33,782 bases of DNA from a virus (lineage: Duplodnaviria > Caudoviricetes). Below are positions 18,001-31,660 of this stretch, one piece after another (the stretch's first letter is position 1; every line of letters starts with the position of its first letter). The notes below the pieces were generated by a model. That model was not told where the DNA came from and did not search any database. It saw only the letters and a program-made list of their open reading frames with translations. The stretch is taken from IMG/VR virus record IMGVR_UViG_3300027804_001396, positions 1-33,782 of that record, one strand, 5' to 3'. The translations under genes were made by a program, and so were the position numbers.

Positions 18001-21000
18001 TTAAGATTAAAATATGTCTTAGATACCTTTGCTAGAAAAAATGGATTACAAGATTTAATTGACAACAAAGAATATGCAACAGTTTATCAAATCTATAAGA
18101 TTAGACAATCTCTAAAGAAATTTAGTTTCCTTGTTTCACAGAAAGTAATGCAACCATATGAACTTCGATATCTACATCGACACATGGTTCAACAAATTTT
18201 CCGTTTAACTAAAGCTCAACGAGATGCAACTAATGTTAAAACAAATATTCTCGATCTTTCAAAGTCAATTGGTATTGATCCAGAACACTTTAGATATCCT
18301 GATAATACCAACATGCGTTGGCTTGATGTTCTAAAAACTTTAGCTGATCTAGGTATTGAAGAAGTTTCGACACTTCGTTTTGGTATGTCTCCAGTTGAAA
18401 TGTTAACTACAGAAACAGGCGCAGCACCAGATATTATTTCTGGAAGAAAGACCGCTATTTTCCCTAATACTATTCAAGGTGGAGACGTTGCGGTTATTTT
18501 TGAAAGAATCTGGGCTAATGATTTAGTACAAAAGGAAGCTAAAGTTTATCTTGATAATCTAGTAAAGACTGGTGTTATCACTGGATATAAGACAGATCAA
18601 ACAAATAAATATGTTCTTTTATCATCTCTAGATAAAGCAACTGAACAACAAGTTCTTGAACACATTCTTGGTAATGATGAACTTATTATGGGTGCTGCTG
18701 AAAATCTTGGTTTATTTGTTGACTTTGAAATGGGAACTTCAGAAAATATCCTTAGATTGCAGAATTCCCAATTCCACGCTAATACAGATGGCGTATATAT
18801 TAATCCACAACGAGGCTTAGGTGAAATTACTGTAAGCCGTGTGGTTGAGGGTTCGCAAAATATTAAGTTCTACTTGACACCCGAAGCTGTTAAGAGAATT
18901 TTAAGAGGTGCTAGAAACTCTGGATTGTTTACACGAATTGAAACTGCTGTTCAAATAAATAAGTTCCTTGGCACTAGTACAACGGTAGATCAGTTACGAA
19001 GAGAAAAATATGCAGAGTATCTTGATTCACATCTAGATCAACTTGCAGATGAGACAGATATTCTTGCTGAACTACAAGGTGATAATCTACAAAGATTGCG
19101 TACAGATCGACTTAGAGATTCAATGGGTATTGAACTTAATCTTTATGATGCCGAGTATTACTTCCACAATGAAGATTCAATTACAAACCTTACTCCATTT
19201 AAAAATGCAGTTACTTTAGATATTAGAATTGCTGCTGAACGGGCTTCAAGATATCCTGCTTTACAAACTGAATATGGTGTTTTAAATCGTTTAATGACTG
19301 AAGATAAAAACCAATGGTGGTTCTTGCGTATTGGTTTTGCAATCTTCTTACAGAATAATCTAGGTCGAACACTAACTGAACAGGAGTTAAAGATTATTCT
19401 AGAAGAGCATTTTGGTGAAAAGTTTACAGATGTAAAATATAATGAATTTACTACAAAACTTTCTCAAGTTACCAATATTATTGACCGAATCAACCACTCC
19501 CCATTCAAAGGTAAGAATAAGTATCTTCATCTTGCAATCAAGCATAGAGAACAAATGCTTGCGGTACCACAAACCTTTAATGATAAATTTGATGTTTTCT
19601 CGTTTATCAAAAACTTTGGAGTACCTGTTGAAGATCATGACCTCGCAGCTCAAGCTGTAATTGAAGCATATGCTATTGTTGAAAACAAAGCAAATCTTCC
19701 TGAAGCTTATTCAACAATCCCAAGCAATGATTTAATTAAGATTGCTAGTAGTTCAACAGATTTTGATATTGCATTCCCTGAAGGAAAACAAATCAATGCT
19801 CAACTTGTTAAACTAAAGATGGATGGTGTAATTGACGACGAAACAGAAACATTCTATCGTTTACTTATTGGTAAAGTTCTAAAGCATAATCCCCATTTAG
19901 CTAAGTTCTTATCTATTAAGATAGACGACCTTGGTACAATTAGAGCTGGTGAAGCTGTAAAGGATGGAGATAGATTTATTATCAATCTTAATCCAACCAT
20001 TCTAAAGAACATGGGTCGCATAGATCAAATTAGAGTATTCTCACATGAAATTGCACACATTGCTAGACTAGCTTTTATTAAGGATAACGGACCAGAGTGG
20101 AGAAAGATTGAATCATTGTTTAGATCCAAGAGAGGTTCACAAGGTATCGAAACAATGTTATTAGTAATGAACAATAACCAACGATACGAAGGATTTGAAC
20201 AAGATTTACGATACTTTAAAGAAAATCCTGAAGAGTTTATTGCTTTCTGGGGTGGTTGGATGTTGGTTGAACAAGTGTTTAATAATGTTGATGTTATGAA
20301 GTTTATTCAATCTAGAAGTACAGCCGCTTACGCTGTAACTATGGGATATAAAACAGCTTTCCACAGAATTAGAGATGAAGTCAAAGCAATCTCATCTGGT
20401 CTTTATGATATTGATGAACAAGTGTTTAATGAAGTTCTCGATCTTACTGAAGCATTGTTTGGTTTTACAAGTTCTATCGAAAGAGAAATCTTTGTTGCTA
20501 ATGAAAACAAAACACTTGGATACCTGGGAGACTTTGATGAACCAATATCAAACACTGGTAGAGATGTAGACGAACTTGCTAGACTAACTCAAGATGAAAG
20601 AAATGGAGTTCCACTTAACGCTCTTGATCAACTTAAGTTAGCAAGTTTACGAAATAAATATAGCAGTGGTCCAATTCAAAACTTAGATATTGTCGAGTAT
20701 AAGAGACTACGACAAAAGAGAGAATCTTTACAAGGAAGTTCCTTATTAAAGCCAACACACAGAGAGCATCCAGGATATACTGGAGTATCTGTACAAGATC
20801 TTTCTTCAGAAGAAAAGCTTGAGATTGCACAGACTGTGGTTTCAGAAACAATCGCAAGACGAAAAAATACCTCTATTAATCAAAGTTCACTTGGTGGTTC
20901 GGCACGACTTGCTTCCGAAAAGGTTTTTGGAAAGAAGGCTACAAGAAATCTTTTAGCATTTAGGCACTACTGGGGAACTATGGGTTTAACACGAGCAAAC

Positions 21001-24000
21001 AAAACCTATTCTAGTGAAAACCCAGCCGTAGCTGCTTTAATGTATATTATTGGTGAAAGCTTTAGTCATACTCAAGGTCAGTTTGTAAAAGAAACTGGAT
21101 CTAGAGCAATTAGAGAAAACAGAGCTTATACCCAACAGTGGGTTGACCGAGTTGCTTATGAAATTGGACAACTTAAGATTATGTCCTCTGACACCGAGTT
21201 TGCTGCTCTTATGGAATATGCTGTTGATGTTGCTTATGGTTTACCAACAGCTACACCACCAACTGGTATTTCAGTAGACAAGATTGATCAAGCTCGGGAA
21301 GTTGGTAAGGCTATTATCATTAATTCAGATAATATGGCAGGATTTATTTATGGTGAAGGAAGAAAGTTATTTAGTGATTTACCTGTAATGCTTAACCGAG
21401 AATTACTAGGATTAAGAAAGAAGAATTCCAATCCTGCCAAAGAAGGTGAATTTGAAGCTAATAGAGCAGGACTTATCCAAGCTGCATCTGATGCAGTAGT
21501 TGATTCTGTACTAAATAAAGGTGCAATAAATGGAACACTATTCTACGCTAGTGGATTAGCTCCTCAAATTAGTGGACATCCATATAGTTTTGATAGGAAT
21601 CAGTTTATTGATCAAGAATTCTTATCTAAACTATGGGAAACAAGAAACAATAGTCCAGAAACATTTGAGATTATTTTTGAAATTGCAGTTCGTCAACTAA
21701 ATAAGATAACCAAAGATGTAGCTATATCTAGACAGATGTTACGACAATCAATGACAAATCCTAGTTTTACGCTTAATGCAAAACCAAATTTACATAGAAT
21801 TTGGGAATCAGCCACTAGAACTTTCTATCAACTTGCAAACAATACAAGAAACAGAAATGAATTAATTAAAAGTATTAATAGAATTTCTTCAAAGAGAGAA
21901 AAAGTTCCAGACATTGATTTAGTAGTTGTTCAGGATTTCTTTAATGCTATTGATGCTGCAATTGTTTCAAAACAACCAGTTAGAGACATGGGTAAGTTAT
22001 TTGTAGAAAGCACAAAAGGATCTTTCCCACCTGGAGTTACCAATATTCCAGCTGGAAAGAAATCAGCAATTGTATTGACTGCACAAACCAAAACCACATT
22101 ACCAGAAATCATGGCTGGCGTTTTCCTATCTGAACTTGGAGAATCACCTAACTATATTCTTGCTGATGGTATTATTACTGATACTCAGATTGCCAAGTCT
22201 GCTAATCTAAGAAAGTATTTCTCAAATAGACTTGATATAATCCTAAGTGATGTTGAAAGATCTAAGGGTTTTAGAGCTACTTCGGCATTGGCTATTCAAG
22301 ATAATACAGGAATTGTTGGATTTGATATCTATGATATTCTTGAGATTTTTGAATCACTGGCTAGTAATATGAATCCAAATCTATCACAAGATGCCAAGGA
22401 ATTACAAGAATCATTAATTGTAATTCGACAAAACCTAGAAATTGAACAAGGTATTCAAGCTAGAAAATTAGGAGAAGAAGACGATTGGTATACCAATTCT
22501 TTACTAAAGTGGGGTACTGAAATTACAAGAATTGCATATGGCCCAAATCTCAATACCGCATCTTTAATTATGGAAGGTGCCCTTGGTGCATTCATTACCA
22601 CTAGATATGGAGGCAATGCAACTGAGTTCTTTGTGGATCTCTTTACTGGTATCTTTAAAAATTACAAAGGTAGTTTTGAAGACATGACAACATATAATCC
22701 ACGAGGACTTGCCATTAATATGTTGTACGGAATGGAGTCTTCAATACGAAATGCCCGTGAAGTATGGGATACTACAAGTAGCAATGATATTGCCCCAGGT
22801 CCTAATAAATGGCAACGATATCGAAACCATATGAGTAAACTACAGAATTCAGTATTTAGAGGAGCTGCTGAAGCATTAACTAACCAAGCTCAACGAATTA
22901 TCGTAGAAAACCTAAATAATGGAAACTTAAATAAACTACGGACATTGTTTAAGGTAGAGGATATCAGAACACTAGATGATTTAAAAATTGCAATGAACAA
23001 GTATAAGATTAAGGGTTTACTGCCTCACATGGCATTTGAACTCAAACAAGCTGGTGTTCTAGAGGATGGAATCCTTGAAGCATATTCATACATGTTAGGA
23101 AATGTTTCTAGTAAGCATGCTAAGGCAGGAACATTAGACTTTATAGCTGCAAATAAATGGATTGAAAACCATGCGTTTACTGTAACATTTGTTGGAAAGA
23201 ATAAGTTTGATAAAGAACAAGCCAAGAGAGCTGTTGCTGTAATGTACGAAGCAACCAAGATGTTTAGAAACATTGTGCTTGTAGAAAACAATCCTTGGGA
23301 CTCAGATACTCACTCTGGAGCTTTACGATATCTATTTACCTTCTATAAACAATATTCCAATCTTTATTGGTCACAGAGAATCATCAGACAATCAGGAAAG
23401 ATGGACAAAGCAACTTTTGTTTCTATCTTAATTGGAACAACAATTGCAGATTTGGTATACAATAGTTTCTTACTAGTTGCACTTGGTATGCTTCCAATTG
23501 CTGCTTTGTTACCTTGGCATGAACAATTTGTGTTTAAAAACAAACCAATGACCACAGCAAGATTAATTCTTAGTAGAAATCCAATCTTTGGTTTAAGTGG
23601 AAACCTTATTGCTGGTTCAATTGCCTATGCTTATGAAACATATAGTGATGTTTCAAACGCTAGAGCAAATAGAAATGAATATCTAGCAACAAAGAAAGCA
23701 GTTGGCAAAGGCTTTGATGAATTAAGTTTAGACTTTGTTCCACAGCAAGCAGTTGAAACACTTACAAAAGATCCACTTACAGCATTCCTAATTGCACTGA
23801 GTGCGGGTTCAAACATGACAGAACAAGAATCATGGGACTTTAAGAATGGACTTTTAAACTCAGCAATGAGATTTGTACCTGGGGGTTTAGGTGAACTTCC
23901 AGTTCGCGTTGGAGCTACTAAGCTTGCATTAGGTGAAAGACCAGGTGTAGATAGGTTTAGAGATGTTAATGTTTCTAGACCAGAAACAGCAGCAGAACCT

Positions 24001-24081
24001 GTTGCTCCTACAGAATCATCTGAGTCAACATCTTCAAGAGATAATCCATTTAAGCCACTGCCAGTTCCAAAGGGACTGTAA
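12079..24081 (+). CDS. giant 4000-aa polyvalent virion protein: DEDDy 3'-5' exonuclease + T7-type RNAP-like domain + zincin metallopeptidase
   Basis: Exonuclease: SFDIEW (D591/E593), VGHNSLGSDSD, YLIQD (Y752/D756). RNAP-like: WDDHMSGIHHKAAML (D1349), REFFKGVIIPVVYEG (R1442/K1446/Y1454), NFIHLDG. Zincin: FSHEIAH (H2656) and NPEEFIA. Confidence 0.75.
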   Translation: MATKGCNISDFIEDLLKQTNADGTRKYTDAQIRGKLRAAFKGGLINKAQLIATTGKTDLLITEPEFVELENLATTVANSNKSMFEVLSQDQLKRFVELTNKAKNSIGSGTTGRLNQSRLTSVLDTLNETPPTKITSILDILDRSIEKAELVGDLARVDKLQKIKASFIDMADLSSKLKIDWKAISKTNSELDKLTLEYAMVKEILDIGDRETAEFKKKFAVEMLDIKDEIQKTQKRTDLTDDEKKKIIDKLIIKQQELMKKFNETTSKKFKDARRKLEKKLKTINYQIQRLKDNAPNSFLNKILISITGIDSEFFVTSLRELKERQLKTEDDIKLAEKIVEEYAEDKTFTIAEVQWLFGEDYTSTKAVKETFYEIEKNPDGSPKKDSTNKPIKKRKERITLDEVKELLSLWSEFKRSKSYESTVSTLESTRINNILLAGDDKLVSEVEPEDALPIARTHTEAKTAKVGYRYDPRKVADRVKGVKDLQTALQRLTYLSSLPNHKGYISAGMLIGVLGQDAQSLFHRFDDAIMDDLELDNPDQTESETTMEGRRLVLQANLEKLGFTSSEILAMPEFTDAGYVDNFTKVVSFDIEWEPNTNNIIAVGIVEYINGNPVPAHTEVIWSRSGKDQYLTKDDAEEVLQRLHTYQNSGFKVVGHNSLGSDSDMQKLVSVSGNTNLGMAVAIRSLDTMLLGFRNSPMGTFTRTYGPSLDNLSKALGTGSKASKAGVTGVTAHEAWKASHASGDYTDFTDYLIQDVALTGRNLLEMVHRKNTTVDVNNSRGEPQPVQLFDITPIWYDTGKPEIGRNQRYRGVGVLFDIVSFKNMQEQMGLGLSQSVMYDVAKLKNVTIQMILALMKADNKSDIDTIFAALNAREETLIENFDSLLEISRSNHTAYLPILREIRRANRNEFLLDASRVSGSEVVYSKTPTKSVYETNALEEVISTLAAYNRNPQRSLDKFARLVGFRERNEGESALSYLRELFNYSATKFNNQNLTISDFGDGTFDYVPAKQLGRGFAQLVLGHIDDGLKLSQNIKTPVDVIDQRREEAELDGEKIEFEDIDNLVEKREYLPLTKQNVSYFAPLSMFEQERMYNDFALRQRYHYILNHNLTDDDLREFEDWRKVNPVVELKNDIKLKQAILKELRDKTLKTEADLDRLEKVYFPSGMTFVTPFDDYFLFDTSISFEDKVKQTKLLLAESKQNLKTYLEGLDKGRLEQGRVQRYNLHLVPNNRSIYSRIPTMEEMEEMSLEIALDLPQFIATFVHDSVNLMDSANVVVAGENHWEMPELSSGGPTGAARLAGIDAQLAWLMSHPELGRDPELLKELTRKSLENGWKQFTSRGWSRSTYWDDHMSGIHHKAAMLWSYFPDSTFKAQGGLLAILQGIKDGSVSKEKLKDYYVETYSQLEIALDKVEQEFTNAGLTKNVNQIQKIRTLLNGSTEVREFFKGVIIPVVYEGGYDAALTGLRDKQKSKISPGDPIHQLNDEDLKEITRILTETGIVVQGRLVDEILGLDTNKVRELMKLFEQGVERLAPNLKTATDAMFKRNPILRDNFIHLDGVREGIKIRLQTIAEYTMPAYLENEPRVKQEEWINKRVAFLENKWQKRINAALDIVKKNGGSIKVGSQVERDFHVALAGDQAAFKTQMTLLGINKMQNSGIKLNSSDRDILEASVMTGRHIADSDLMFTDHVVFTTVGIGTGSGRAQYVGNYLTNLHGSKLSKGNRYVENPDGSINWKETVKNSAWSLVGNNLTGLPKDVAKKKLRELAVKNYLLTVATDYPPTMIGYNMDDESRGQFFKEWQERSRKEREWEANERLTDIEKLKAAYTAEGRTLTDEQIEQAIASNSTPRNKRLGTRILAPTITTNDDDAVMSVEDAKGLAGFRPRLADNAFEDRIVHGLYSIYQGIKKLNLGTEKVRENLERIEKEGMTPDKVFDMENSRATQYDPNKLGVYFPEVESSLVESIFGERPTFNQRVLRLKYVLDTFARKNGLQDLIDNKEYATVYQIYKIRQSLKKFSFLVSQKVMQPYELRYLHRHMVQQIFRLTKAQRDATNVKTNILDLSKSIGIDPEHFRYPDNTNMRWLDVLKTLADLGIEEVSTLRFGMSPVEMLTTETGAAPDIISGRKTAIFPNTIQGGDVAVIFERIWANDLVQKEAKVYLDNLVKTGVITGYKTDQTNKYVLLSSLDKATEQQVLEHILGNDELIMGAAENLGLFVDFEMGTSENILRLQNSQFHANTDGVYINPQRGLGEITVSRVVEGSQNIKFYLTPEAVKRILRGARNSGLFTRIETAVQINKFLGTSTTVDQLRREKYAEYLDSHLDQLADETDILAELQGDNLQRLRTDRLRDSMGIELNLYDAEYYFHNEDSITNLTPFKNAVTLDIRIAAERASRYPALQTEYGVLNRLMTEDKNQWWFLRIGFAIFLQNNLGRTLTEQELKIILEEHFGEKFTDVKYNEFTTKLSQVTNIIDRINHSPFKGKNKYLHLAIKHREQMLAVPQTFNDKFDVFSFIKNFGVPVEDHDLAAQAVIEAYAIVENKANLPEAYSTIPSNDLIKIASSSTDFDIAFPEGKQINAQLVKLKMDGVIDDETETFYRLLIGKVLKHNPHLAKFLSIKIDDLGTIRAGEAVKDGDRFIINLNPTILKNMGRIDQIRVFSHEIAHIARLAFIKDNGPEWRKIESLFRSKRGSQGIETMLLVMNNNQRYEGFEQDLRYFKENPEEFIAFWGGWMLVEQVFNNVDVMKFIQSRSTAAYAVTMGYKTAFHRIRDEVKAISSGLYDIDEQVFNEVLDLTEALFGFTSSIEREIFVANENKTLGYLGDFDEPISNTGRDVDELARLTQDERNGVPLNALDQLKLASLRNKYSSGPIQNLDIVEYKRLRQKRESLQGSSLLKPTHREHPGYTGVSVQDLSSEEKLEIAQTVVSETIARRKNTSINQSSLGGSARLASEKVFGKKATRNLLAFRHYWGTMGLTRANKTYSSENPAVAALMYIIGESFSHTQGQFVKETGSRAIRENRAYTQQWVDRVAYEIGQLKIMSSDTEFAALMEYAVDVAYGLPTATPPTGISVDKIDQAREVGKAIIINSDNMAGFIYGEGRKLFSDLPVMLNRELLGLRKKNSNPAKEGEFEANRAGLIQAASDAVVDSVLNKGAINGTLFYASGLAPQISGHPYSFDRNQFIDQEFLSKLWETRNNSPETFEIIFEIAVRQLNKITKDVAISRQMLRQSMTNPSFTLNAKPNLHRIWESATRTFYQLANNTRNRNELIKSINRISSKREKVPDIDLVVVQDFFNAIDAAIVSKQPVRDMGKLFVESTKGSFPPGVTNIPAGKKSAIVLTAQTKTTLPEIMAGVFLSELGESPNYILADGIITDTQIAKSANLRKYFSNRLDIILSDVERSKGFRATSALAIQDNTGIVGFDIYDILEIFESLASNMNPNLSQDAKELQESLIVIRQNLEIEQGIQARKLGEEDDWYTNSLLKWGTEITRIAYGPNLNTASLIMEGALGAFITTRYGGNATEFFVDLFTGIFKNYKGSFEDMTTYNPRGLAINMLYGMESSIRNAREVWDTTSSNDIAPGPNKWQRYRNHMSKLQNSVFRGAAEALTNQAQRIIVENLNNGNLNKLRTLFKVEDIRTLDDLKIAMNKYKIKGLLPHMAFELKQAGVLEDGILEAYSYMLGNVSSKHAKAGTLDFIAANKWIENHAFTVTFVGKNKFDKEQAKRAVAVMYEATKMFRNIVLVENNPWDSDTHSGALRYLFTFYKQYSNLYWSQRIIRQSGKMDKATFVSILIGTTIADLVYNSFLLVALGMLPIAALLPWHEQFVFKNKPMTTARLILSRNPIFGLSGNLIAGSIAYAYETYSDVSNARANRNEYLATKKAVGKGFDELSLDFVPQQAVETLTKDPLTAFLIALSAGSNMTEQESWDFKNGLLNSAMRFVPGGLGELPVRVGATKLALGERPGVDRFRDVNVSRPETAAEPVAPTESSESTSSRDNPFKPLPVPKGL

Positions 24082-24172
24082 GAAATCGACTTTGGGGTCA
24101 GAAATTTTTGTGGGGGGTTTGGATGTTAGGTTTGTTGCCTAACCCCCCTCACCCCCAGTTGAAAGGAACTGT

Positions 24173-24334
24173 ATGGGTCATTTCTGGAAAGCCCTGAAGA
24201 TCGTGTTCGGGGCCATCATCGGTCTGCTCTTTCTCATGGCTGCGGTTAGCGCAGTCACCTGGGAGTGGGCAATCCTTTGTTTCGCCATGTTTTGCATGAT
24301 GTTTACTTTCGTTATGCAGAATGTGTGCGAGTGA
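24173..24334 (+). CDS. small two-TM membrane protein, 53 aa (not in ORF track)
   Basis: MGHFWKALKIVFGAIIGLLFLMAAVSAVTWEWAILCFAMFCMMFTFVMQNVCE with RBS GAAAGGAA upstream. Confidence 0.65.
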   Translation: MGHFWKALKIVFGAIIGLLFLMAAVSAVTWEWAILCFAMFCMMFTFVMQNVCE

Positions 24335-24343
24335 CAACCAACA

Positions 24344-24432
24344 CTCCGTGCTCTCCCTTCGGGGAGAGCGCGGGGATGTTAGCTGTTGCTAACACTGTGC
24401 TTGTGCAGATCACAGGCAATTTAACGAGGAGA
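24344..24432 (+). promoter_or_regulatory. multi-hairpin intergenic leader, copy 1
   Basis: Long cUUCGg hairpin, then TGTTAGC-tgtt-GCTAACA, then CTTGTG-cagat-CACAGG, then the RBS. Confidence 0.6.
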
Positions 24433-24436
24433 GCAC

Positions 24437-24598
24437 ATGCTCTACTACGTCACTGTTGAGCGGGATGGAGTTCACGTCGAGACGCACAAGTTCGCTTCCT
24501 GGAAGGAAGCGCGTCAGTACGCCTACGCAGTCAAGGCTGCGCGGCGTGGCGTGGAGGTCTGGATCGGACAAGACGGCGAAGGCGCCGTCAAGATCTGA
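24437..24598 (+). CDS. small hypothetical protein, 53 aa (not in ORF track)
   Basis: MLYYVTVERDGVHVETHKFASWKEARQYAYAVKAARRGVEVWIGQDGEGAVKI; RBS GAGGAG; fills the gap between two leader repeats. Confidence 0.7.
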   Translation: MLYYVTVERDGVHVETHKFASWKEARQYAYAVKAARRGVEVWIGQDGEGAVKI

Positions 24599-24617
24599 TC
24601 TACCGCAACGACCAACA

Positions 24618-24703
24618 CCCCGCTCCTCTGCTACGGCAGGGGGGCGGGGATGTTAGCCGTTGCTAACACCGTACCTATGCGGAACATAGGCTATTCAAAG
24701 GAG
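24618..24703 (+). promoter_or_regulatory. multi-hairpin intergenic leader, copy 2
   Basis: Long cUACGg hairpin, TGTTAGC-cgtt-GCTAACA, CCTATG-cggaa-CATAGG, then CTATTCAAAGGAG. Confidence 0.65.
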
Positions 24704-24711
24704 TAAAGCCA

Positions 24712-25227
24712 ATGGCTTTGCTTACGAAGGCGGTTAGCTGGAGCTCCATCGTGGAGCTCGGCGCAAAGCTCTGCGACCACTGTCGCGGAGAAAACGGAAA
24801 GGCTTTCAAGGAAGCCTTTCTTCTGGGGCAGCGTTGTCCCCAGAACTCGCTGTCCTTTGGGGGCCGCGAAGCGGCCCTCAATGGCAAGTTCGCCATCGCG
24901 TCATCTTTTGCTTGGCTCAAGACCAAGCAGGAGATCGACGTTCTGGAGGCTCGCCTCCTGAACGAAACGTACTCCCTGCGCGGGGAGTACGAGTACGGAC
25001 ACGCCGTGGAGGAACTGGATCAGTTCCTGCACGGGCTCTCTGCATATGCAGAGAGTGACGTCGATTACCTGATGTGGCAGAGCGCCACGTCAGGTACGCG
25101 GATCGTCTGCGTCCGCAAGACGCAGCGGTCTGAGTCCAGGGGCACAACGCACACCTGGATCGCGGAGTACCACGAGGGCCACAAGCTTTCGCAGTACGGC
25201 GCGCTGTGGTCAGAAATGACCGCGTGA
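24712..25227 (+). CDS. hypothetical early protein, 171 aa
   Basis: RBS AAAGGAG, GC-rich third codon positions, one CxxC (CDHC). Confidence 0.7.
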   Translation: MALLTKAVSWSSIVELGAKLCDHCRGENGKAFKEAFLLGQRCPQNSLSFGGREAALNGKFAIASSFAWLKTKQEIDVLEARLLNETYSLRGEYEYGHAVEELDQFLHGLSAYAESDVDYLMWQSATSGTRIVCVRKTQRSESRGTTHTWIAEYHEGHKLSQYGALWSEMTA

Positions 25228-25240
25228 CGGCACTACCGTC

Positions 25241-25331
25241 GCTCTCTCCTAGGTAGGTCCCTAGGAGAGAGCTTTCGGCTGCGCTGTTGCAGCACACCGT
25301 ACCTGTGCGGATCACAGGCTATTCAAAGGAG
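25241..25331 (+). promoter_or_regulatory. multi-hairpin intergenic leader, copy 3
   Basis: 13-bp hairpin, GCTGC-gctgtt-GCAGC, then a 38-nt block that is 35/38 identical to copy 2. Confidence 0.65.
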
Positions 25332-25338
25332 GAGCCAC

Positions 25339-25629
25339 ATGGCTCAATCCGACAAGTGGGTCATCACGACCCGCTACCTGGTGATGGAAGGACCGAAGGC
25401 AATCCTGTCTCGGTCGTCCATCTTGGACGCGATTGATGATTGTGCACAGAGGCATCTGTGCTACATTCGCAGGGAAACTACCATTAAGGTTGATGAAACC
25501 TTGACGGTGATTTCCAACTGCGACATCAACCTTCCAATTCTTCCTGTACACGACATCTACAACATCCCGAATGGGATGGATTACGATGCGCTGAAGAAGC
25601 GAATGCAGGAGGTGTTCTACGGTAAGTAA
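25339..25629 (+). CDS. hypothetical early protein, 96 aa
   Basis: Strong RBS AAAGGAGGAG; bounded by leader hairpins. Confidence 0.7.
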   Translation: MAQSDKWVITTRYLVMEGPKAILSRSSILDAIDDCAQRHLCYIRRETTIKVDETLTVISNCDINLPILPVHDIYNIPNGMDYDALKKRMQEVFYGK

Positions 25630-25769
25630 GAACTAAACGATCCTACCCAAGCCCCCTAGGTTTTCCTAGGGGGCGAAGGGCTGTATCGTTACAGCAAACC
25701 CCTAACGGCATTGAGGGGTGCCCATTCTGGGCCTACATTCAAACCAGGGCACAGCCCTAGGAGAATACA

Positions 25770-27584
25770 ATGCCTGTTTCCTTTGCTAGTCTTCCGACTA
25801 GCGCAAAGGTTACGCACTTCATCACGGACTTGGTCATCAAGTCTGGAGAGGCGCGTAACCAGCCTTCCTTTGTGGAGGCGGTCAAGGTTCGTTGGGATAA
25901 CACCGTTATTCCAGCCCTTGAGAACGGCGACCTGACGGTGTTCCAGGTCGGTGACGAGAAGTGGATGCGTAACCCGTCGTCAAGGATGACGAAGGACTAC
26001 CGCGTCTGCCTCAGCCCGAGGACCCTGCGTCACAGCGACACGACCAGCAAGAGCGGATTCGATCTGCCCCTGCTGTACGCCGCTGAGCAGGACGCTCGGA
26101 GCCAGATCAAGTTCACGGTGAATCGCCAGTTGCTGGCGATCATCCAGAACTCGGCCCTGGTTCCCGAGCTCGCTGCCGAATTCGGAAAGGACCCTGCCAT
26201 TGCTGTGGCAGAACGGTTCCTCCGTTCGGCGGAAGGGACGAAGCAGTTCCACTTCTTCATCCCGCCGTTCCTGGACGATGTCGGCCGCGAGTATGGTGAG
26301 GGAATGCTCACCTACACGGGCAGCCAGATGATCCGCAACCTGATCGAGTTCTACGACCAGCTGGACTACAGCATGGACGAACTCAAGGAGCTTGAGCCCA
26401 TGATCATTCATGCGGCTGGAGTCTCCCTGAAGAACTACGAGGACGTGATCAAGAAGGCGAACGACATCCTGTCGGGCAAGTGGAAGTTCAAGAATCCGTG
26501 GCTCACGCTGCGGATGGCGATCTTCTACCAGGAGGTCATCACCACTGGGCGCTCTGGTGCCCATCTGGAGTTCGACTTCCGCACCAGCGGACCCATGCTC
26601 CTTGGTCTGATGTCTGGCGACCGCAACATGATGGTTGATACCAACATGTTCGGCGCTGACGGACGCGACTGCCGTAACACGGTGATCAGCCTTGTTACGG
26701 TGCCCCTTGCTCTTCGCAAGTGGGAGTCCCGTCTTCTGACCAAGGACGTGGCAAAGCCGTTCGTGACCCAGACCACCTACGGTCAGGGTCCGAGTGGTGC
26801 TGCCTCAGGGCTGTTCTGGAAGGATGACGATAAGGCTCCAGCCAACTGGCTGAACGCCTTCGGCATCCCCAACACGGTTGTCCTTGACGCTGTGTGGTCG
26901 AAGAGGCCGAACCTCTTCAACCCCGAGTGGATGGACATCGTCCGCGAACTCGGGTGGGTCGAGGGCTACTCGGCTCTCCACGATCTGGCTTCGCAGTACT
27001 ATAACGCTTTCTGGGGTGCATACCACCAGCTCAAGCGTTTCTGCCAGCAGATCCAGGAGGCCAGTGAGGCCCAGCAGCTTGCCACTGGCAAGAAGCCGTC
27101 CTACACCAACGTCTCCGACTGGACCTACAATCACCACAAGTGGGTGATGAAGGAAGGTGGCAAGGTCATTCGCTGTCGCTACAATGGCGACAAGTGCAAG
27201 GACTTCCCCAAGGGGTTCGAAGTCTCCATCGGTGAGATGGTGGACATCGCTTCCCCGTACAGCATGGTGGTTCGTATGACCCACCAGGCTGACGCCTGGA
27301 TCCGTATGATGGCCTTCTGGTCCATCTACAAGTTCCAGATCGCCACCTTCGGGCGGTACGTCGGTCACATGGCGGTTCACGATGCGTTCATCGTGCCCGT
27401 CAAGATGGGACCGAAGATGCACAAGGTGATGCGTCCCGTGATGCATCAGTTTGTGAACAAGTACGTTCCGCACGTCCACAAGTGGATGCGTGACCACGGG
27501 CAGGAGCCGCCCGTGATCACCAAGGATCAGCTCAAGCTGGTCCACTGGTCCATCGCCAACAACACCTCGTGGCTCAACCTCTGA
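25770..27584 (+). CDS. single-subunit T7-type DNA-dependent RNA polymerase, N-terminally shortened (604 aa)
   Basis: Motifs in canonical order: FFIPPFLDDVGREY (DxxGR, D169), EFDFRTSG (motif A, D269), KDVAKPFVTQTTYG (motif B, K329/Y337), THQADA (H505), AVHDAF (motif C, D538). RBS AGGAG. Confidence 0.85.
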   Translation: MPVSFASLPTSAKVTHFITDLVIKSGEARNQPSFVEAVKVRWDNTVIPALENGDLTVFQVGDEKWMRNPSSRMTKDYRVCLSPRTLRHSDTTSKSGFDLPLLYAAEQDARSQIKFTVNRQLLAIIQNSALVPELAAEFGKDPAIAVAERFLRSAEGTKQFHFFIPPFLDDVGREYGEGMLTYTGSQMIRNLIEFYDQLDYSMDELKELEPMIIHAAGVSLKNYEDVIKKANDILSGKWKFKNPWLTLRMAIFYQEVITTGRSGAHLEFDFRTSGPMLLGLMSGDRNMMVDTNMFGADGRDCRNTVISLVTVPLALRKWESRLLTKDVAKPFVTQTTYGQGPSGAASGLFWKDDDKAPANWLNAFGIPNTVVLDAVWSKRPNLFNPEWMDIVRELGWVEGYSALHDLASQYYNAFWGAYHQLKRFCQQIQEASEAQQLATGKKPSYTNVSDWTYNHHKWVMKEGGKVIRCRYNGDKCKDFPKGFEVSIGEMVDIASPYSMVVRMTHQADAWIRMMAFWSIYKFQIATFGRYVGHMAVHDAFIVPVKMGPKMHKVMRPVMHQFVNKYVPHVHKWMRDHGQEPPVITKDQLKLVHWSIANNTSWLNL

Positions 27585-27715
27585 CCGCCTCTAACCGCAT
27601 GGCACGGGGGAAACCCCGTGCTGTGCTTTGGGCATTTCTGCCCACCTCGCCTACGGAGAACCCAGTAGGGGATTTCCTGTTATCCCAAAGAACAGGCTTT
27701 TAGGAGATTGTCACC

Positions 27716-28126
27716 ATGAGTGGCAACATCAACGTCGGTGCTCGTCAGGTCATCCGCAACGCCGAGGGCAAGCTCATCGGGACCTTCATCCCGTCGAAGA
27801 AGCACCTGGGCAAGATCGCCCTGACCACCTACCTCCCCACGGGGGAGGCGCACACCACGATCCGTGGCCAGGAGGACTGGATCCAGATCAAGGACCGCAA
27901 CCCCGATTGGGACTTCGCTCCCTCCTACTACACGGTCAAGTGCAAGAAGGAGGGCGATGAGGTGGTGATCGAGCTGACCCACAACGCCATCCCCGAGTGG
28001 AACACCACGTTCCGCGTGCCCCACACGCCGAACTGGCAGGACTCGTTCCTGATCTCGTTCCGCATGGGCATGATGACGCTGGGTCGCGAGACGCACATCG
28101 GCAACTTTGTCGATCTGACCGTCTGA
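27716..28126 (+). CDS. hypothetical early protein, 136 aa
   Basis: RBS AGGAG, strong C/G third-position bias, directly after the RNAP gene. Confidence 0.75.
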   Translation: MSGNINVGARQVIRNAEGKLIGTFIPSKKHLGKIALTTYLPTGEAHTTIRGQEDWIQIKDRNPDWDFAPSYYTVKCKKEGDEVVIELTHNAIPEWNTTFRVPHTPNWQDSFLISFRMGMMTLGRETHIGNFVDLTV

Positions 28127-28153
28127 CACAGGCCGCAACAGCCTCGGAGCAAA

Positions 28154-28175
28154 CCCCCTTGGGCAACCAAGGGGG
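28154..28175 (+). terminator. GC-rich GCAA-loop hairpin, possible terminator or processing site
   Basis: CCCCCTTGG-gcaa-CCAAGGGGG after the 136-aa gene; the U-tract is weak and displaced. Confidence 0.35.
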
Positions 28176-28286
28176 CCTCTCCCTGTTTGTTAGGGCTTTG
28201 GTAGGCATGGGTATACTAGACTATACCCTTTCTGTAGGCATAGAACTCAGGGTAGTTATAGACTTATAGTCAAAATGGTATTACAG

Positions 28287-28316
28287 ACCATACCATACCA
28301 TACCCTACCATACCCC
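28287..28316. repeat. tandem pentamer repeat, (ACCAT)-like x6
   Basis: accat accat accat accct accat acccc within a non-coding stretch. Confidence 0.8.
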
Positions 28317-28635
28317 TAGTTATGCATCAGAATGTCTCTAATGGCATTCTAGGGCCATTTCCTGCCATTCTATGGTCTGTATGGCATCAGAATTCAAATT
28401 ATATGGGCATATACATGGGTATGCCCCTGCTAATTTCCCATAATATCAGTATTTATCGTCCCCTTCGGGGACCGTTGTGGATCATTGGATCTCGTCAATG
28501 CATGGATGAATATCCAATATGTACTTTATGGAGGAATCTATAAAGTATATTTCACTAGGCTATGACCTAGGACTGACATACCAAGGTATAGCAGCGTAGC
28601 TAATCTTGGCATGGCAGAACACAGGAGAGGACAAT

Positions 28636-28896
28636 ATGTCCGCAGACAACACGCAGTCTGATACCGTGCCGCAGGGTGAGATCGTGAAGTTCGACCCCAT
28701 CCAGGCGATGCTCCGTTCTGGCCAGATCACCATCACCAGCAAGGGTGAGTCGAACTGGCCTGGGAACTACAAGAACCTCAATGACCGTCAGGTCATGAAT
28801 CTTGTCAAGATGGTCATGGATGGCAAGGCTCGTCGGCCTGAAACCGTCAAGGCCATCCTGACCGAAGCCCATGAGCGTGGGCTGGTCACGGCATGA
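28636..28896 (+). CDS. hypothetical protein, 86 aa from ATG 28636
   Basis: RBS AGGAGAGGA upstream of MSADNTQ...; flanked by identical 20-nt UUCG hairpins. Confidence 0.7.
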   Translation: MSADNTQSDTVPQGEIVKFDPIQAMLRSGQITITSKGESNWPGNYKNLNDRQVMNLVKMVMDGKARRPETVKAILTEAHERGLVTA

Positions 28897-29452
28897 GGTA
28901 TCGTCCCCTTCGGGGACCACGGTGGTCTATGGGGAAACCCATAGATCACATTTCCAATCACCAACTAGCCATTGTATAAATGGGTAGTGCCTTAATGGTG
29001 TACTCTACAGCTTGGCTTACCTGTAGACATTACCTGATAGGTGAGTTATCAGGCGCTGCCCAAGAGCGGTAGTCAAACCTCTTGGTATTCACCTGAGCAA
29101 TGTGCCTAAACTGCTCAATGGTGTATGCAACCTGGCAAGTTACCAATTAACTGGGCAGGAGGGCCTGAGCATAACTAAGCCCTACCATAAAAAGGGCTCT
29201 AGCCTGCTGGTTAAGGCGATTCTTGAAAAAATAGAATCAAGAACAACCAGGCACCTGAGCAAGTGTAGTAAACTGCTCACTTCTGTAATCTACGGTCATA
29301 CTGTAGATGGGTACCACAGAAAGGGGGTGTCTAAATGACACTTCAACATCTCAATTAGGTTTCAACAGTTAAGGCGGAATCCCACCGCCAAAGACATACC
29401 TAAATGGGTGAGCCTTTGTTGAAGGTCCGTAGGGTAGTAGCCTACATCAACA

Positions 29453-29522
29453 ACTCGCTTGGACGAGTATAAATAGCGGGTTAGGTCCAAGGCGCCCCCT
29501 CCCATAACAATGGGGGGTCCCG
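29453..29522 (+). ncRNA. pistol self-cleaving ribozyme
   Basis: P1 ACTCG/CGAGT; loop CTTGGA pairs with TCCAAG; ATAAATAG linker; P2 CGGG/CCCG; TTAGG; conserved GCG; P3 hairpin; GT cleavage junction at 29517/29518. Confidence 0.88.
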
Positions 29523-29702
29523 ACTGACACCAGCCGTGGCACCTATGGACTTGAAACACCCATAGAAAACTATGCCAGTTTCAACGGCAATGGGCTAACA
29601 AGTAAGGGGTAACTGACCCACACTGCTTACTTGGAAGGGTATATAGGGTTACATGGGGCCCCTTAGCGGAAACGCTATGGGGTCTTTTCGAAGGAGGTCT
29701 AC

Positions 29703-29948
29703 ATGACCAATAGCAAGTACAAGCTAGGCCGCTGTCCATTCGAATACATGGACTGCGTGGCAGACCGTCCGTGGGACACCTACGGACCCAACTTCTCATG
29801 GGGAGAGTTTAAATCTCTTCAAAGAGATCTTGAGGATGTCCGCGATAGGCTTCTAGATCAACGAGACGAGTTGATCGACCAGATCAATGCTCTCCAGAAC
29901 GTATTGCTGGAGCACAATCTGCCATTTCCAAAGCCCAAGGGAGTTTAA
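29703..29948 (+). CDS. hypothetical coiled-coil protein, 81 aa, embedded in the ncRNA region
   Basis: Perfect RBS AAGGAGGT; heptad pattern LQRDLEDVRDRLLDQRDELIDQINALQNVL. Confidence 0.7.
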   Translation: MTNSKYKLGRCPFEYMDCVADRPWDTYGPNFSWGEFKSLQRDLEDVRDRLLDQRDELIDQINALQNVLLEHNLPFPKPKGV

Positions 29949-30616
29949 TCTCCCGATAGGCATTCACCGCAAGCAACCTAGCCCACAGGCGGTATACAAA
30001 TAGTGGGACACACATTATGTGTAGACCTGAGCAAGTCATTAAAAGGCTCAAAACACAGCAAGGCAAGTATCCAAATAGCTGGGAGCAGCGGTGCACAGGA
30101 TACCCGACTTGCAGACCTGAGCATGTCCTGTTAAACTGCTCAAATATACTCCCAAGTGGGCTTGGTGAAGGATAACCAAGAATTGGTAGCTTGCAAACAA
30201 GACTATCAGAATAAAAACCTTTGGACTAATCGCAACCTTGTCGAACAACACAAGGTTGTATAGGACTCCCTAGACTTGATGATCATCAAGTGGGGATACG
30301 CGGGATGCACCCCGTGCAGGCTTATCACAAGCCCGTGTTATACCTCACCAAGTGGAGGTGGGCCTCTATAGTTGCTGCCAAGCTATAGTTGATTAATGGC
30401 ACCGTGTTACTCCGAGCGGGCAATTCGGAGCTTTATACCAAGTCCACACGACAATCGTACCTGATTGTCCTAGCCTATTGGTAGGGGTGTGTACGCAACT
30501 AACTGTCCGTGGTTAGTTGAGACAGATAAAGAAACGGACTAGGTATGCGGTATTGACGCACCGCAACTGATTAAAGTCGTGGTATCCGTGGGTGAAATAT
30601 CCCACGGGTACCTTTC

Positions 30617-30727
30617 GGGTGTCGCAAGGATTGCACATGCGGTGTTTTGACAATAGTTAGATGTTAAAACCACTACCTAACTGTAGGAAGCATGTTGAAA
30701 TGGGGTTCGAATCCCCTTACACTCACC
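30617..30727 (+). ncRNA. tRNA-like / mini-tmRNA-like RNA with one internal pseudoknot
   Basis: Acceptor GGGTGT/ACACTC plus ACC; stemless D-loop; ACATGC/GCATGT helix enclosing a pseudoknot; T-arm GGGG-TTCGAAT-CCCC. Confidence 0.55.
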
Positions 30728-30728
30728 T

Positions 30729-30794
30729 TCTAATCAAACCAAGTGTCACTACTTGGTTATCCTAGTGGGGTTCGAATCCCCAATGTTGGAGCCA
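30729..30794 (+). ncRNA. D-armless tRNA-like element ending in CCA
   Basis: TCTAAT/GTTGGA acceptor-like pairing, 8-bp hairpin AACCAAGT/ACTTGGTT, T-arm TGGGG-TTCGAAT-CCCCA, 3' GCCA. Confidence 0.45.
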
Positions 30795-30930
30795 ATTCCC
30801 GTGTAACGGGGCGCGCTATGGGCTACAGTGCTATGGGACTGGCCTAGGCTGTGTTGACCGAGCAGTATAATTCGGTCCCTTATAAGATATACTCTCGCGT
30901 TGAGAGTATGCCTTTACAGGAGAGTTCGAT

Positions 30931-31053
30931 ATGAACGACTCGATCTGTCAGTGTGGTAAGCCCTATAACTCTGATGAGTGTTATGGTTACTGCCATATCT
31001 GTATTGATTCTTGGTTTGCAAATGGTTGTCAAACCACAATTGGAGATGAATAA
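30931..31053 (+). CDS. small Cys-rich protein, 40 aa (not in ORF track)
   Basis: MNDSICQCGKPYNSDECYGYCHICIDSWFANGCQTTIGDE; RBS AGGAG; coupled to the next ORF (TAATG). Confidence 0.6.
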   Translation: MNDSICQCGKPYNSDECYGYCHICIDSWFANGCQTTIGDE

Positions 31054-31199
31054 TGAGCAAGCAGAAGAAGAACAAGCGTCGTAAGCGTAAGTCGGGTTAC
31101 GTTAACCTGACTCCGTCCCAGGGATGGAATACTGAGGTCTACTCCTTTGAGAGTCTGGCCTTTGTCCTCAGGGTCGTGTATCCAGAGAAGTTCAAGTAA
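31053..31199 (+). CDS. small protein with Lys/Arg-rich N-terminus, 48 aa (not in ORF track)
   Basis: MSKQKKNKRRKRKSGYVNLTPSQGWNTEVYSFESLAFVLRVVYPEKFK; RBS GGAG. Confidence 0.6.
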   Translation: MSKQKKNKRRKRKSGYVNLTPSQGWNTEVYSFESLAFVLRVVYPEKFK

Positions 31200-31209
31200 G
31201 GAAACAACA

Positions 31210-31284
31210 ATGGATAATTGGGATGTTCTGGCAGACTGGGAAGAGCTGATGAAGCAGTACGAACAGGAGAATGACGATGAGTGA
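31210..31284 (+). CDS. acidic 24-aa peptide (not in ORF track)
   Basis: MDNWDVLADWEELMKQYEQENDDE; RBS AAGGA; overlaps the next start. Confidence 0.45.
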   Translation: MDNWDVLADWEELMKQYEQENDDE

Positions 31285-31528
31285 TCTAAGTGGAATCCGA
31301 ATCGCGCTTTGGGAGGTCAACTCGGACAATCCCAATAGCCCCAAGTTTAATGGTATTGTTACCATTAATGGAGTCGAGCACAAGGTGTCCCTCTGGGACA
31401 ACGCAGGAGCGACCCACCCTAAGGCACCTCGCCTTAAGGGTAAGACGTCTCGGCCATCCCCTAAGGGGGATGTGTCAATGAATACTGAAACCTTTGTCAC
31501 CCCAGGTGGCATTGAGCTTCCGTTCTAA
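31271..31528 (+). CDS. small putative ssDNA-binding protein (DUF736-like) with an SSB-type C-terminal LPF tail
   Basis: IALWEVNSDNPNSPKFNGIVTINGVEHKVSLW pattern; ends in IELPF. Confidence 0.55.
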   Translation: MTMSDLSGIRIALWEVNSDNPNSPKFNGIVTINGVEHKVSLWDNAGATHPKAPRLKGKTSRPSPKGDVSMNTETFVTPGGIELPF

Positions 31529-31529
31529 A

Positions 31530-31560
31530 CGAATGAGCATAGGGAAACCTATGCTCGTTC
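31530..31560 (+). terminator. GAAA-loop hairpin after the SSB-like gene
   Basis: GAATGAGCATAGG-gaaa-CCTATGCTCGTTC; no clear U-tract. Confidence 0.35.
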
Positions 31561-31660
31561 ACTTCCGAATACCCTAGTATGTAGCTAGGGGTTCAACCCA
31601 AGATACTTAGGTTTATAATAATATAGTAATTATTATACCTAGGTTAACCTAGGAGAGTAT

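What the first reader, a model, noticed from the sequence alone, without database searches (positions are those of the whole stretch)
29453..29522. Near-consensus pistol ribozyme in a phage early region
Seen: ACTCG-CTTGGA-CGAGT-ATAAATAG-CGGG-TTAGG-TCCAAG-GCG-[P3]-GT-CCCG, matching every element of the pistol class, with predicted cleavage between 29517 and 29518. The biological roles of pistol ribozymes are largely unknown. Here it would split the pseudoknot cluster from the downstream leader and 81-aa gene, which gives a testable function.
Basis: partly seen in the sequence, partly recalled or inferred. Interest (0 to 1): 0.8.

Follow-up and report, generated by a model that had tools for sequence, protein, structure and literature searches.

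The report
Pistol ribozyme releasing orphan phage RNA
This is a textbook member of a known class of self-cutting RNA (pistol), kept as one copy across a group of uncultured T7-like phages, where its predicted cut likely frees the front end of a 171-base folded RNA that matches no catalogued family, rather than controlling the small gene further on.

Summary
Confirmed. Window 29453-29522 (+) scores 48 bits against Rfam Pistol (cut-off 34.5, E 5.9e-6). Every catalytic position is present and the predicted cut is G29517|U29518. The window is part of a ~69-kb T7-like phage. Fifteen related records each hold one pistol in the same region. Their P1 and pseudoknot are 100% paired, with 7 of 11 pairs changed on both sides, so the fold is under selection.

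The 'leader of the 81-aa gene' idea fails: that gene follows in only 2 of 16 loci. Instead, a 171-nt double-pseudoknot RNA (29518-29688) with no Rfam match starts at the cut site in 11 of 17 loci and ends in a terminator-like hairpin before the gene. All 10 strong copies from a viral-contig scan follow a pistol.

Two freshwater metatranscriptomes hold an exact-match upstream RNA contig that stops about 25 nt before the cut (a weak hint). Related-strain contigs bridge the site.

Best reading: the ribozyme processes an early transcript into separate non-coding RNAs. Cleavage is untested. Pistols in phages are known. The linked orphan RNA, and a P2 stem largely lost in 10 of 17 orthologues, are the new parts.

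The parts
29453..29522 (+). Pistol ribozyme (Rfam RF02679)
   Evidence: 48.0 bits, cut-off 34.5, E 5.9e-6; covariation in 15 distinct orthologous 5' halves
29453..29468 (+). P1 hairpin (5 bp); its loop 29458-29463 forms the pseudoknot
   Evidence: 100% paired in 15 distinct rows, 2 of 5 pairs with two-sided change
29486..29491 (+). 3' strand of the 6-bp pseudoknot
   Evidence: 100% paired, 5 of 6 pairs with two-sided change
29484..29485 (+). Purine-32 and G33 equivalents (G33 N7 binds the catalytic Mg2+)
   Evidence: Position in the sequence; roles from PMC7027511 and PMC6154101 (passages); purine then G in all 17 loci
29492..29494 (+). GCG = G40, C41, G42 equivalents
   Evidence: Invariant in alignment A2
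29495..29516 (+). P3: 5 bp in the active register; a slipped 8-bp register pairs G29517
   Evidence: the slip is favoured in only 3 of 17 loci
29517..29518 (+). Predicted cleavage site G|U
   Evidence: Two-base P3-P2 junction (PMC4604425); G|U in 14 and G|A in 3 of 17 loci. Cleavage not tested.
29518..29688 (+). Orphan 171-nt structured RNA, the predicted 3' product: pseudoknot A 29534-29587, pseudoknot B 29602-29650, conserved UACAUGGG 29650-29657, 12-bp hairpin 29657-29684 plus UUUU
   Evidence: Alignments and pair counts; no Rfam match at E<=10; model hits
28900..29517 (+). Predicted 5' product: ~600-nt structured array with three small H-type-pseudoknot repeats (about 29090, 29162, 29252), ending in the ribozyme body
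   Evidence: Fold z = -5.07 (20 shuffles); repeats; exact-match RNA contigs 28964-29493 and 28938-29492
28900..28925 (+). Repeated hairpin element (second copy at 28455); candidate promoter or processing mark at the start of the unit
   Evidence: Four copies each in G001 and G002, all on the + strand in the early region, one 24 nt before the RNA polymerase gene. Role inferred.
29703..29948 (+). 81-aa ORF with ribosome-binding site; a neighbour, not a conserved partner
   Evidence: Homologue found only in L001 among 16 pistol loci; no family over cut-off

Best explanation
It is a pistol-class ribozyme that is predicted to cut the phage's early transcript at G29517|U29518 and likely serves as a built-in processing site, giving a defined 5'-OH start to a 171-nt orphan pseudoknotted RNA and a hairpin-capped 2',3'-cyclic-phosphate end to the upstream RNA array. 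Shown here: class membership, selection on the fold, one copy per record in one phage clade, and tight linkage of the orphan RNA to the cut site. From established pistol chemistry: Mg2+-dependent attack of the G29517 2'-OH, with G29492 as base and G29485-bound Mg2+ as acid. Inferred: transcription from near the 28900 hairpin element; cleavage during transcription; a 3' end of the orphan RNA at the hairpin-UCUUUU (weak terminator or nuclease barrier); different lifetimes for the two products. What the two RNAs then do is not established; a protein- or nuclease-binding role for the knots is a guess.
For: Rfam hit. P1 plus pseudoknot 100% paired in 15 distinct orthologues, 7 of 11 pairs and 26 cells with two-sided change, 0/500 shuffles for percent paired and cells, slid controls 20-42%. 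One pistol over cut-off in G001-G003 (these were picked for having it) and in 12 of 42 further RNA-polymerase relatives, 6 of 11 near-complete ones. In a 26-sequence polymerase tree, 14 of 15 records of one clade (support 0.986) carry it; the exception is a fragment with only 3.8 kb upstream. P3 varies from 20 to 114 nt, yet G|U or G|A follows it, and the orphan RNA keeps its distance from the cut even in the 114-nt case. The orphan RNA starts at the cut in 11 of 17 loci, 4 of them outside the 7 used to build the model. All 10 strong hits among 62 pattern loci follow a pistol. Its pairs covary: 6 of 47 pairs in the unfitted 7-row alignment, 22 of 35 in the model-fitted one. Weak hint: exact-match RNA contigs of two studies stop at 29493 and 29492 with no loose end, while DNA contigs L003 and L004 run through.
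Against: No cleavage was observed. RNA contigs of related strains bridge the site: X1 record at depth 5.85 and a 2197-nt X3 contig at depth 284.6, so uncut RNA or DNA is present there. No own-strain RNA contig covers the 171-nt RNA. The orphan RNA is absent in 4 of 17 loci (G001, G003, G004, G033) and diverged and about 70 nt displaced in 2 (G017, G018), so it is not the only reason the ribozyme is kept. P2 has at most 2 of 4 standard pairs in 10 of 17 loci, which may mean slow or no cutting there. In the window, the slipped P3 and a downstream pairing with the core (-19.9 kcal/mol; 23/500 shuffles as low) could slow it. The terminator scan did not call the 3' hairpin (only 4 U), and a related-strain contig reads on past it. 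The two RNA studies share year and habitat and may be one campaign.
Confidence: 0.62

Rival explanations
1. The cut is generic punctuation: it insulates or destabilises whatever early message lies downstream (as RNase III sites do in T7; recalled), and the 171-nt element is a protective 5' structure on a longer read-through mRNA rather than a free RNA.
For: The pistol persists in 4 of 17 loci without the 171-nt RNA. The 3' hairpin has only four U. A related-strain RNA contig runs past 29689. Hammerhead clusters flank phage genes and cut in vitro (PMC3088659, passages). Pistol-less relative G023 has two type II hammerheads between small genes.
Against: Conservation stops sharply at UCUUUU in all 10 aligned copies, and different sequence follows. 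Strains diverge or insert exactly at 29689. No gene is constant downstream.
Confidence: 0.2
2. The cut controls translation or stability of the 81-aa gene through its leader.
For: In the window the gene is the first ORF with a ribosome-binding site after the cut, 185 nt away.
Against: The gene was found in 2 of 16 loci. In L001 about 250 nt of other modules intervene. A 134-nt insertion sits at 29689 in another strain. A hairpin-UCUUUU lies before its ribosome-binding site.
Confidence: 0.06
3. The motif is slow, conditional or non-cleaving in this lineage and is kept as a folded module or switch; P2 loss and P3 slippage would be its tuning.
For: P2 has at most 2 standard pairs in 10 of 17 loci, against 3-4 of 4 in five unrelated pistols (read). 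High-depth related-strain contigs bridge the site. A slipped P3 is favoured in the window, G002 and G004.
Against: All catalytic letters and the two-base junction are kept. The window copy has a full P2. Slippage is absent in 14 of 17 loci, and the strong downstream anti-core pairing occurs only in the window, G002 and L210, so neither looks like a conserved switch.
Confidence: 0.12

Closest known systems
Pistol self-cleaving ribozyme (Rfam RF02679; Harris et al. 2015, PMC4604425, parts 1-2 of 4 read; env25 numbering from PMC7027511 and PMC6154101, passages read)
   Same: Same three stems, 6-bp pseudoknot, purine-32, G33, GCG and two-base G|U junction. Frequent location near phage genes is already described.
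   Different: Published examples are said to be mostly from Firmicutes and environmental DNA; here it is fixed as one copy in a clade of large T7-like phages. The window's P3 is short with a competing register. Many orthologues have a largely unpaired P2 while the rest covaries.
Theta (HDV-like) ribozymes of gut phages (PMC10879173, passages read)
   Same: A phage small ribozyme whose cut site abuts a discrete non-coding RNA and is proposed to mature it. This is the closest functional analogy.
   Different: Different fold and class. Theta trims tRNA 3' ends; here the linked RNA is 3' of the cut, gains a 5'-OH end, and is not a tRNA.
Clustered hammerheads in phage and prophage operons (Perreault et al. 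2011, PMC3088659, passages read)
   Same: Ribozymes proposed to divide long phage transcripts; one halovirus transcript end was mapped near a hammerhead site.
   Different: Here a single ribozyme sits between non-coding modules rather than several flanking genes. Relative G023 does show the hammerhead arrangement, at another position.

Membership tests
Pistol ribozyme RF02679 | Covariance-model score above the curated cut-off over the full model | tested here: met
   48.0 bits against 34.5, positions 1-68 of 68
Pistol ribozyme RF02679 | P1 stem whose loop forms a 6-bp pseudoknot with the P2-P3 junction | tested here: met
   5 + 6 standard pairs; 7 of 11 pairs covary in orthologues
Pistol ribozyme RF02679 | Purine-32, G33, G40, C41, G42 and the conserved A-rich P1-P2 linker | tested here: met
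   G29484, G29485, GCG 29492-94, AUAAAUA 29469-75; roles. The paper's figure marking its 10 most conserved bases was not visible, so these were mapped by the Rfam consensus and env25 numbering.
Pistol ribozyme RF02679 | P2 stem | tested here: met
   4 of 4 pairs in the window. Not met in the usual form by 10 of 17 lineage copies.
Pistol ribozyme RF02679 | P3 stem followed by a two-base junction (usually GU) holding the scissile bond | tested here: met
   5-bp P3 then G29517-U29518; a competing slipped register is predicted 2.3 kcal/mol lower in isolation
Pistol ribozyme RF02679 | Mg2+-dependent self-cleavage giving 2',3'-cyclic phosphate and 5'-OH | not testable with these tools
   Only assembled RNA contigs were available; they give a weak hint and also bridging records
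Any Rfam 15 family (for the 171-nt RNA, 29518-29688) | Covariance-model match | tested here: not met
   No match in this interval at E<=10 in the scan of 28100-31300
Theta ribozyme system | HDV-like fold with its cut site at a tRNA 3' end | tested here: not met
   The fold is pistol; no tRNA in the window. Analogy only.

The most novel reading that the evidence does not exclude
The pistol is a dedicated 5'-maturase for an undescribed 171-nt double-pseudoknot phage RNA made early in infection, which would be one of the few concrete biological jobs for this ribozyme class. The lineage has also evolved active pistols that dispense with most of P2.
Probability: 0.45. Interest if true: 0.68.

Novelty: new member of a known kind. 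Interest (0 to 1): 0.45.

Why it matters
Most genome-encoded small ribozymes have no known job (PMC6765202, passages read). This locus ties a pistol's cut site to the first base of a specific conserved RNA across a phage clade, which gives a precise prediction: ends at 29517/29518 and a ~171-nt product. It also supplies natural weak-P2 variants for testing how much of the fold catalysis needs. The ribozyme alone is ordinary, and similar pistol-in-array loci recur elsewhere in this scan, which limits the surprise.

Tried and rejected
- Exact 31-base core in viral contigs: 0 hits.
- blastn of 28880-30950 against cultured phages: no match.
- A conserved slipped-P3 switch: rejected, favoured in only 3 of 17 loci. 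The window row was mis-picked by the script's heuristic (a 114-nt P3); searches are used for the window.
- A conserved downstream anti-ribozyme pairing: rejected, strong in only 3 of 17 loci and 23/500 shuffles reach it.
- A ribozyme swap at the same site in pistol-less relatives: not found. G024, G026, G028, G030 and G034 have no ribozyme over cut-off in the scanned upstream stretches, and G023's hammerheads lie at a different position.
- The orphan RNA outside this lineage: none. Of 74 distinct matches to the pseudoknot-A pattern, 7 had the structure, all after a pistol (that pattern's gap range missed the G008 and G020 types). One 15.6-bit hit (L249) is treated as chance but remained as a row.
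- Sigma-70 promoter scan: at chance level (7 found against 5.8 expected).
- Repeated element of 24.3-25.3 kb as an exact pattern in viral contigs: 0 hits.
- Lack of RNA contig cover over parts of the region, and run X3's small share (0.17), are not used as evidence. Contig depths are quoted but cannot rank expression.
- Host not determined.

Full report
OBSERVATION. A scan of the whole window against all 4227 Rfam families gives one match over cut-off: Pistol RF02679 at 29453-29522 (+), 48.0 bits against 34.5, E 5.9e-6, full length. Reading the sequence gives P1 (29453-57/29464-68), a perfect 6-bp pseudoknot (29458-63/29486-91), the A-rich linker, P2 with 4 of 4 pairs (29477-80/29519-22), GCG at 29492-94, a 5-bp P3 base and the junction G29517|U29518. 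By env25 numbering (passages of PMC6154101 and PMC7027511), G29484 is purine-32 (A32G keeps activity), G29485 is the Mg2+-binding G33, and GCG is G40-C41-G42. Harris et al. place cleavage in the two-base GU junction between P3 and P2 and note that pistols often lie near phage genes (PMC4604425, parts 1-2 of 4 read).

SETTING. The window is a 33.8-kb virus record with a T7-type terminase. The complete relative G001 (69,006 bp) encodes a single-subunit RNA polymerase, primase-helicase, DNA polymerase and T7-type portal, capsid and tail proteins. Its pistol lies about 4.9 kb upstream of the polymerase gene. 'Early region' is therefore reasonable by gene order, though the physical genome end is unknown. 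The window stops before the polymerase gene, so its place in the lineage rests on its nearest relative L001/G002 (82.6% identity over 28591-29689). The ribozyme sits in a 2-kb, largely gene-free array of hairpins and small pseudoknot repeats. No cultured phage matches the array. Two freshwater metatranscriptomes hold 0.60 and 0.43 of the sampled words of 28600-31600.

SELECTION ON THE RIBOZYME. A search with G001's polymerase gave 46 loci. Of 42 further records searched, 12 hold exactly one pistol over cut-off, including 6 of 11 near-complete ones; many of the rest are short fragments. G001-G003 also hold one each, but were picked for that. In a tree of 26 of the polymerases, chosen for long upstream sequence or distinctness, 14 of 15 records of one clade (FastTree support 0.986) carry it. 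The exception has only 3.8 kb of upstream sequence. Outside the clade only G033 has a pistol. Across 16 aligned 5' halves (15 distinct), P1 and the pseudoknot are 100% paired, 7 of 11 pairs change on both sides, no shuffle of 500 reaches the percent paired or the cell count, and slid controls give 20-42%. The sequences are related, so the shuffle counts are not probabilities. With L210 added (a pistol recognised by eye and script, not scored by Rfam) there are 17 loci. P3 ranges from 20 to 114 nt and is followed by G|U in 14 and G|A in 3. P2 is the exception: at most 2 of 4 standard pairs in 10 of 17 loci, against 3-4 of 4 in five unrelated viral pistols read. The window's own P2 is complete.

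WHAT THE CUT SEPARATES. The 81-aa gene is not a conserved partner. tblastn found it after the pistol only in the window and L001, of 16 loci, at 185 and about 435 nt from the cut. The upstream side also varies: modules are gained, lost and reordered, and in L210 an ORF stop codon lies 6 nt before P1. What is conserved is a 171-nt element from the predicted +1 base to UCUUUU at 29688. It has two predicted pseudoknots (29534-29587, 29602-29650), a conserved UACAUGGG and a 12-bp terminal hairpin. In the unfitted 7-row alignment 96.4% of cells pair and 6 of 47 pairs change on both sides; the two loop-pairing helices show no two-sided change there. The more distant G016/G020/G021 type shows compensating changes in both loop pairings when read by eye. 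The model-fitted 11-row alignment, which leans towards the structure and includes one chance row, gives 22 of 35 nested pairs. A covariance model built from 7 copies finds the element starting at the cut in 4 further loci (11 of 17 in all), a weaker match about 70 nt downstream in G017 and G018, and none in G001, G003, G004 or G033. Among 62 viral-contig loci matching its 3' pattern, 10 score 59-214 bits and all 10 follow a pistol; they are the same lineage records. It matches no Rfam family at E<=10. I had noticed its first pseudoknot before reading earlier finding e1-6249023, whose mention of a ~170-base RNA past a pistol prompted me to define the full extent. Paper searches (listings only) showed no description of this RNA or of ribozymes in such phages. 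The library lacks most subscription papers, and I did not open supplementary candidate-RNA lists, where the motif could already be recorded.

RNA DATA. Only assembled contigs exist, which cannot show ends, strand or level. In run X1 an exact-match contig spans 28964-29493 (depth 80.4), and in X2 one spans 28938-29492 (39.8). Both stop with no loose end at the foot of P3, about 25 nt before the cut, while DNA contigs L003 and L004 run through. A merge with the co-occurring strain would be expected to end the X1 contig near 29521 rather than 29493 (my inference from the listed differences). Poor priming in a terminal hairpin would fit a 5' product ending at 29517. This is a weak hint, and the two studies may be one campaign. 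Against: related-strain contigs bridge the site (X1, depth 5.85; X3, 2197 nt, depth 284.6), no own-strain contig covers the 171-nt RNA, and a related-strain contig reads past its 3' hairpin.

MECHANISM. Shown: class, selection, linkage. From established chemistry: Mg2+-dependent transesterification leaving a 2',3'-cyclic phosphate and a 5'-OH. Inferred: a transcript starting near the repeated hairpin element at 28900 (four copies each in G001 and G002, one 24 nt before the polymerase gene) folds the ribozyme and is cut at 29517|29518. The upstream ~600-nt array (fold z -5.07) ends in a hairpin with a 0-1 nt tail, which would resist 3' exonucleases. The downstream product starts with a fixed 5'-OH end 12-16 nt before pseudoknot A and likely ends at the hairpin-UCUUUU, which the terminator scan did not call. 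The window copy may be slower than model pistols because a slipped P3 pairs the nucleophile (2.3 kcal/mol) and downstream sequence can pair with the core; neither feature is lineage-wide. I put 0.62 on this reading, 0.20 on generic mRNA punctuation, 0.12 on a slow or non-cleaving module and 0.06 on control of the 81-aa gene.

COMPARISON AND VERDICT. It meets every sequence-testable feature of the pistol class, so it is a new member of a known kind. It works most like theta ribozymes, which are proposed to mature adjacent phage tRNAs (PMC10879173, passages), but it is not one. Polycistron processing by phage ribozymes has been proposed before and remains open (PMC3088659, PMC6765202; passages). 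Several earlier AI notes of this scan describe pistols in phage RNA arrays; they are unchecked leads and lower the surprise. The new content is the tight tie to an orphan RNA, the clade-wide single copy and the weak-P2 orthologues. Interest 0.45.

Noticed in passing
window 25770-27584 (+): The 604-aa ORF is likely a second, highly diverged T7-type single-subunit RNA polymerase. A profile of 11 relatives hits T7 RNA polymerase at E 2e-26 and mitochondrial polymerases at 1e-29, and 7 of 11 members match Pfam RNA_pol, though the window protein alone does not. The lineage would then encode two such enzymes.
   Followed up: partly
window 24325-24440, 24598-24715, 25283-25342 (+): A repeated intergenic structured element before ribosome-binding sites, with apparent pseudoknots and compensating changes in relatives, and no Rfam match over cut-off. 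In relative G023 the comparable gaps hold two type II hammerheads (L084 2028-2093, 2507-2575), so it is a candidate uncatalogued ribozyme or processing signal.
   Followed up: partly
L050, L051, L045, L046, L058, L060, L055, L061, L091, L092 (pistol orthologues): P2 has only 1-2 of 4 standard pairs while P1, pseudoknot, P3 and catalytic bases are kept.
   Followed up: partly
window about 29090, 29162, 29252, 30024, 30114 (+): Five copies of a ~30-nt H-type-pseudoknot-like repeat with no Rfam match; copy number varies among relatives.
   Followed up: partly
window 30254-30590: A second exact-match RNA contig in run X1 (depth 32.6) lies within the downstream half of the array.
   Followed up: no
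window 30701-30716 and 30766-30781 (+): Two identical tRNA-T-arm-like hairpins outside any tRNA; some relatives have real tRNAs in their arrays.
   Followed up: no
window 24100-28130: G+C jumps from about 35% in the virion genes to 55-60% here, then falls to 45-50%. This may mark the first-entering module and the true genome end near 24.1 kb.
   Followed up: no
window 12079-24081 (+): A 4000-aa ORF after the terminase and two other large ORFs, with no PHROG family and only a sub-threshold SprT-like Pfam match.
   Followed up: no
L210 (whole locus, - strand): An apparent recombinant: the 171-nt RNA is nearly identical to the window's, but the pistol 5' half is of the G031 type and directly follows an ORF.
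   Followed up: partly
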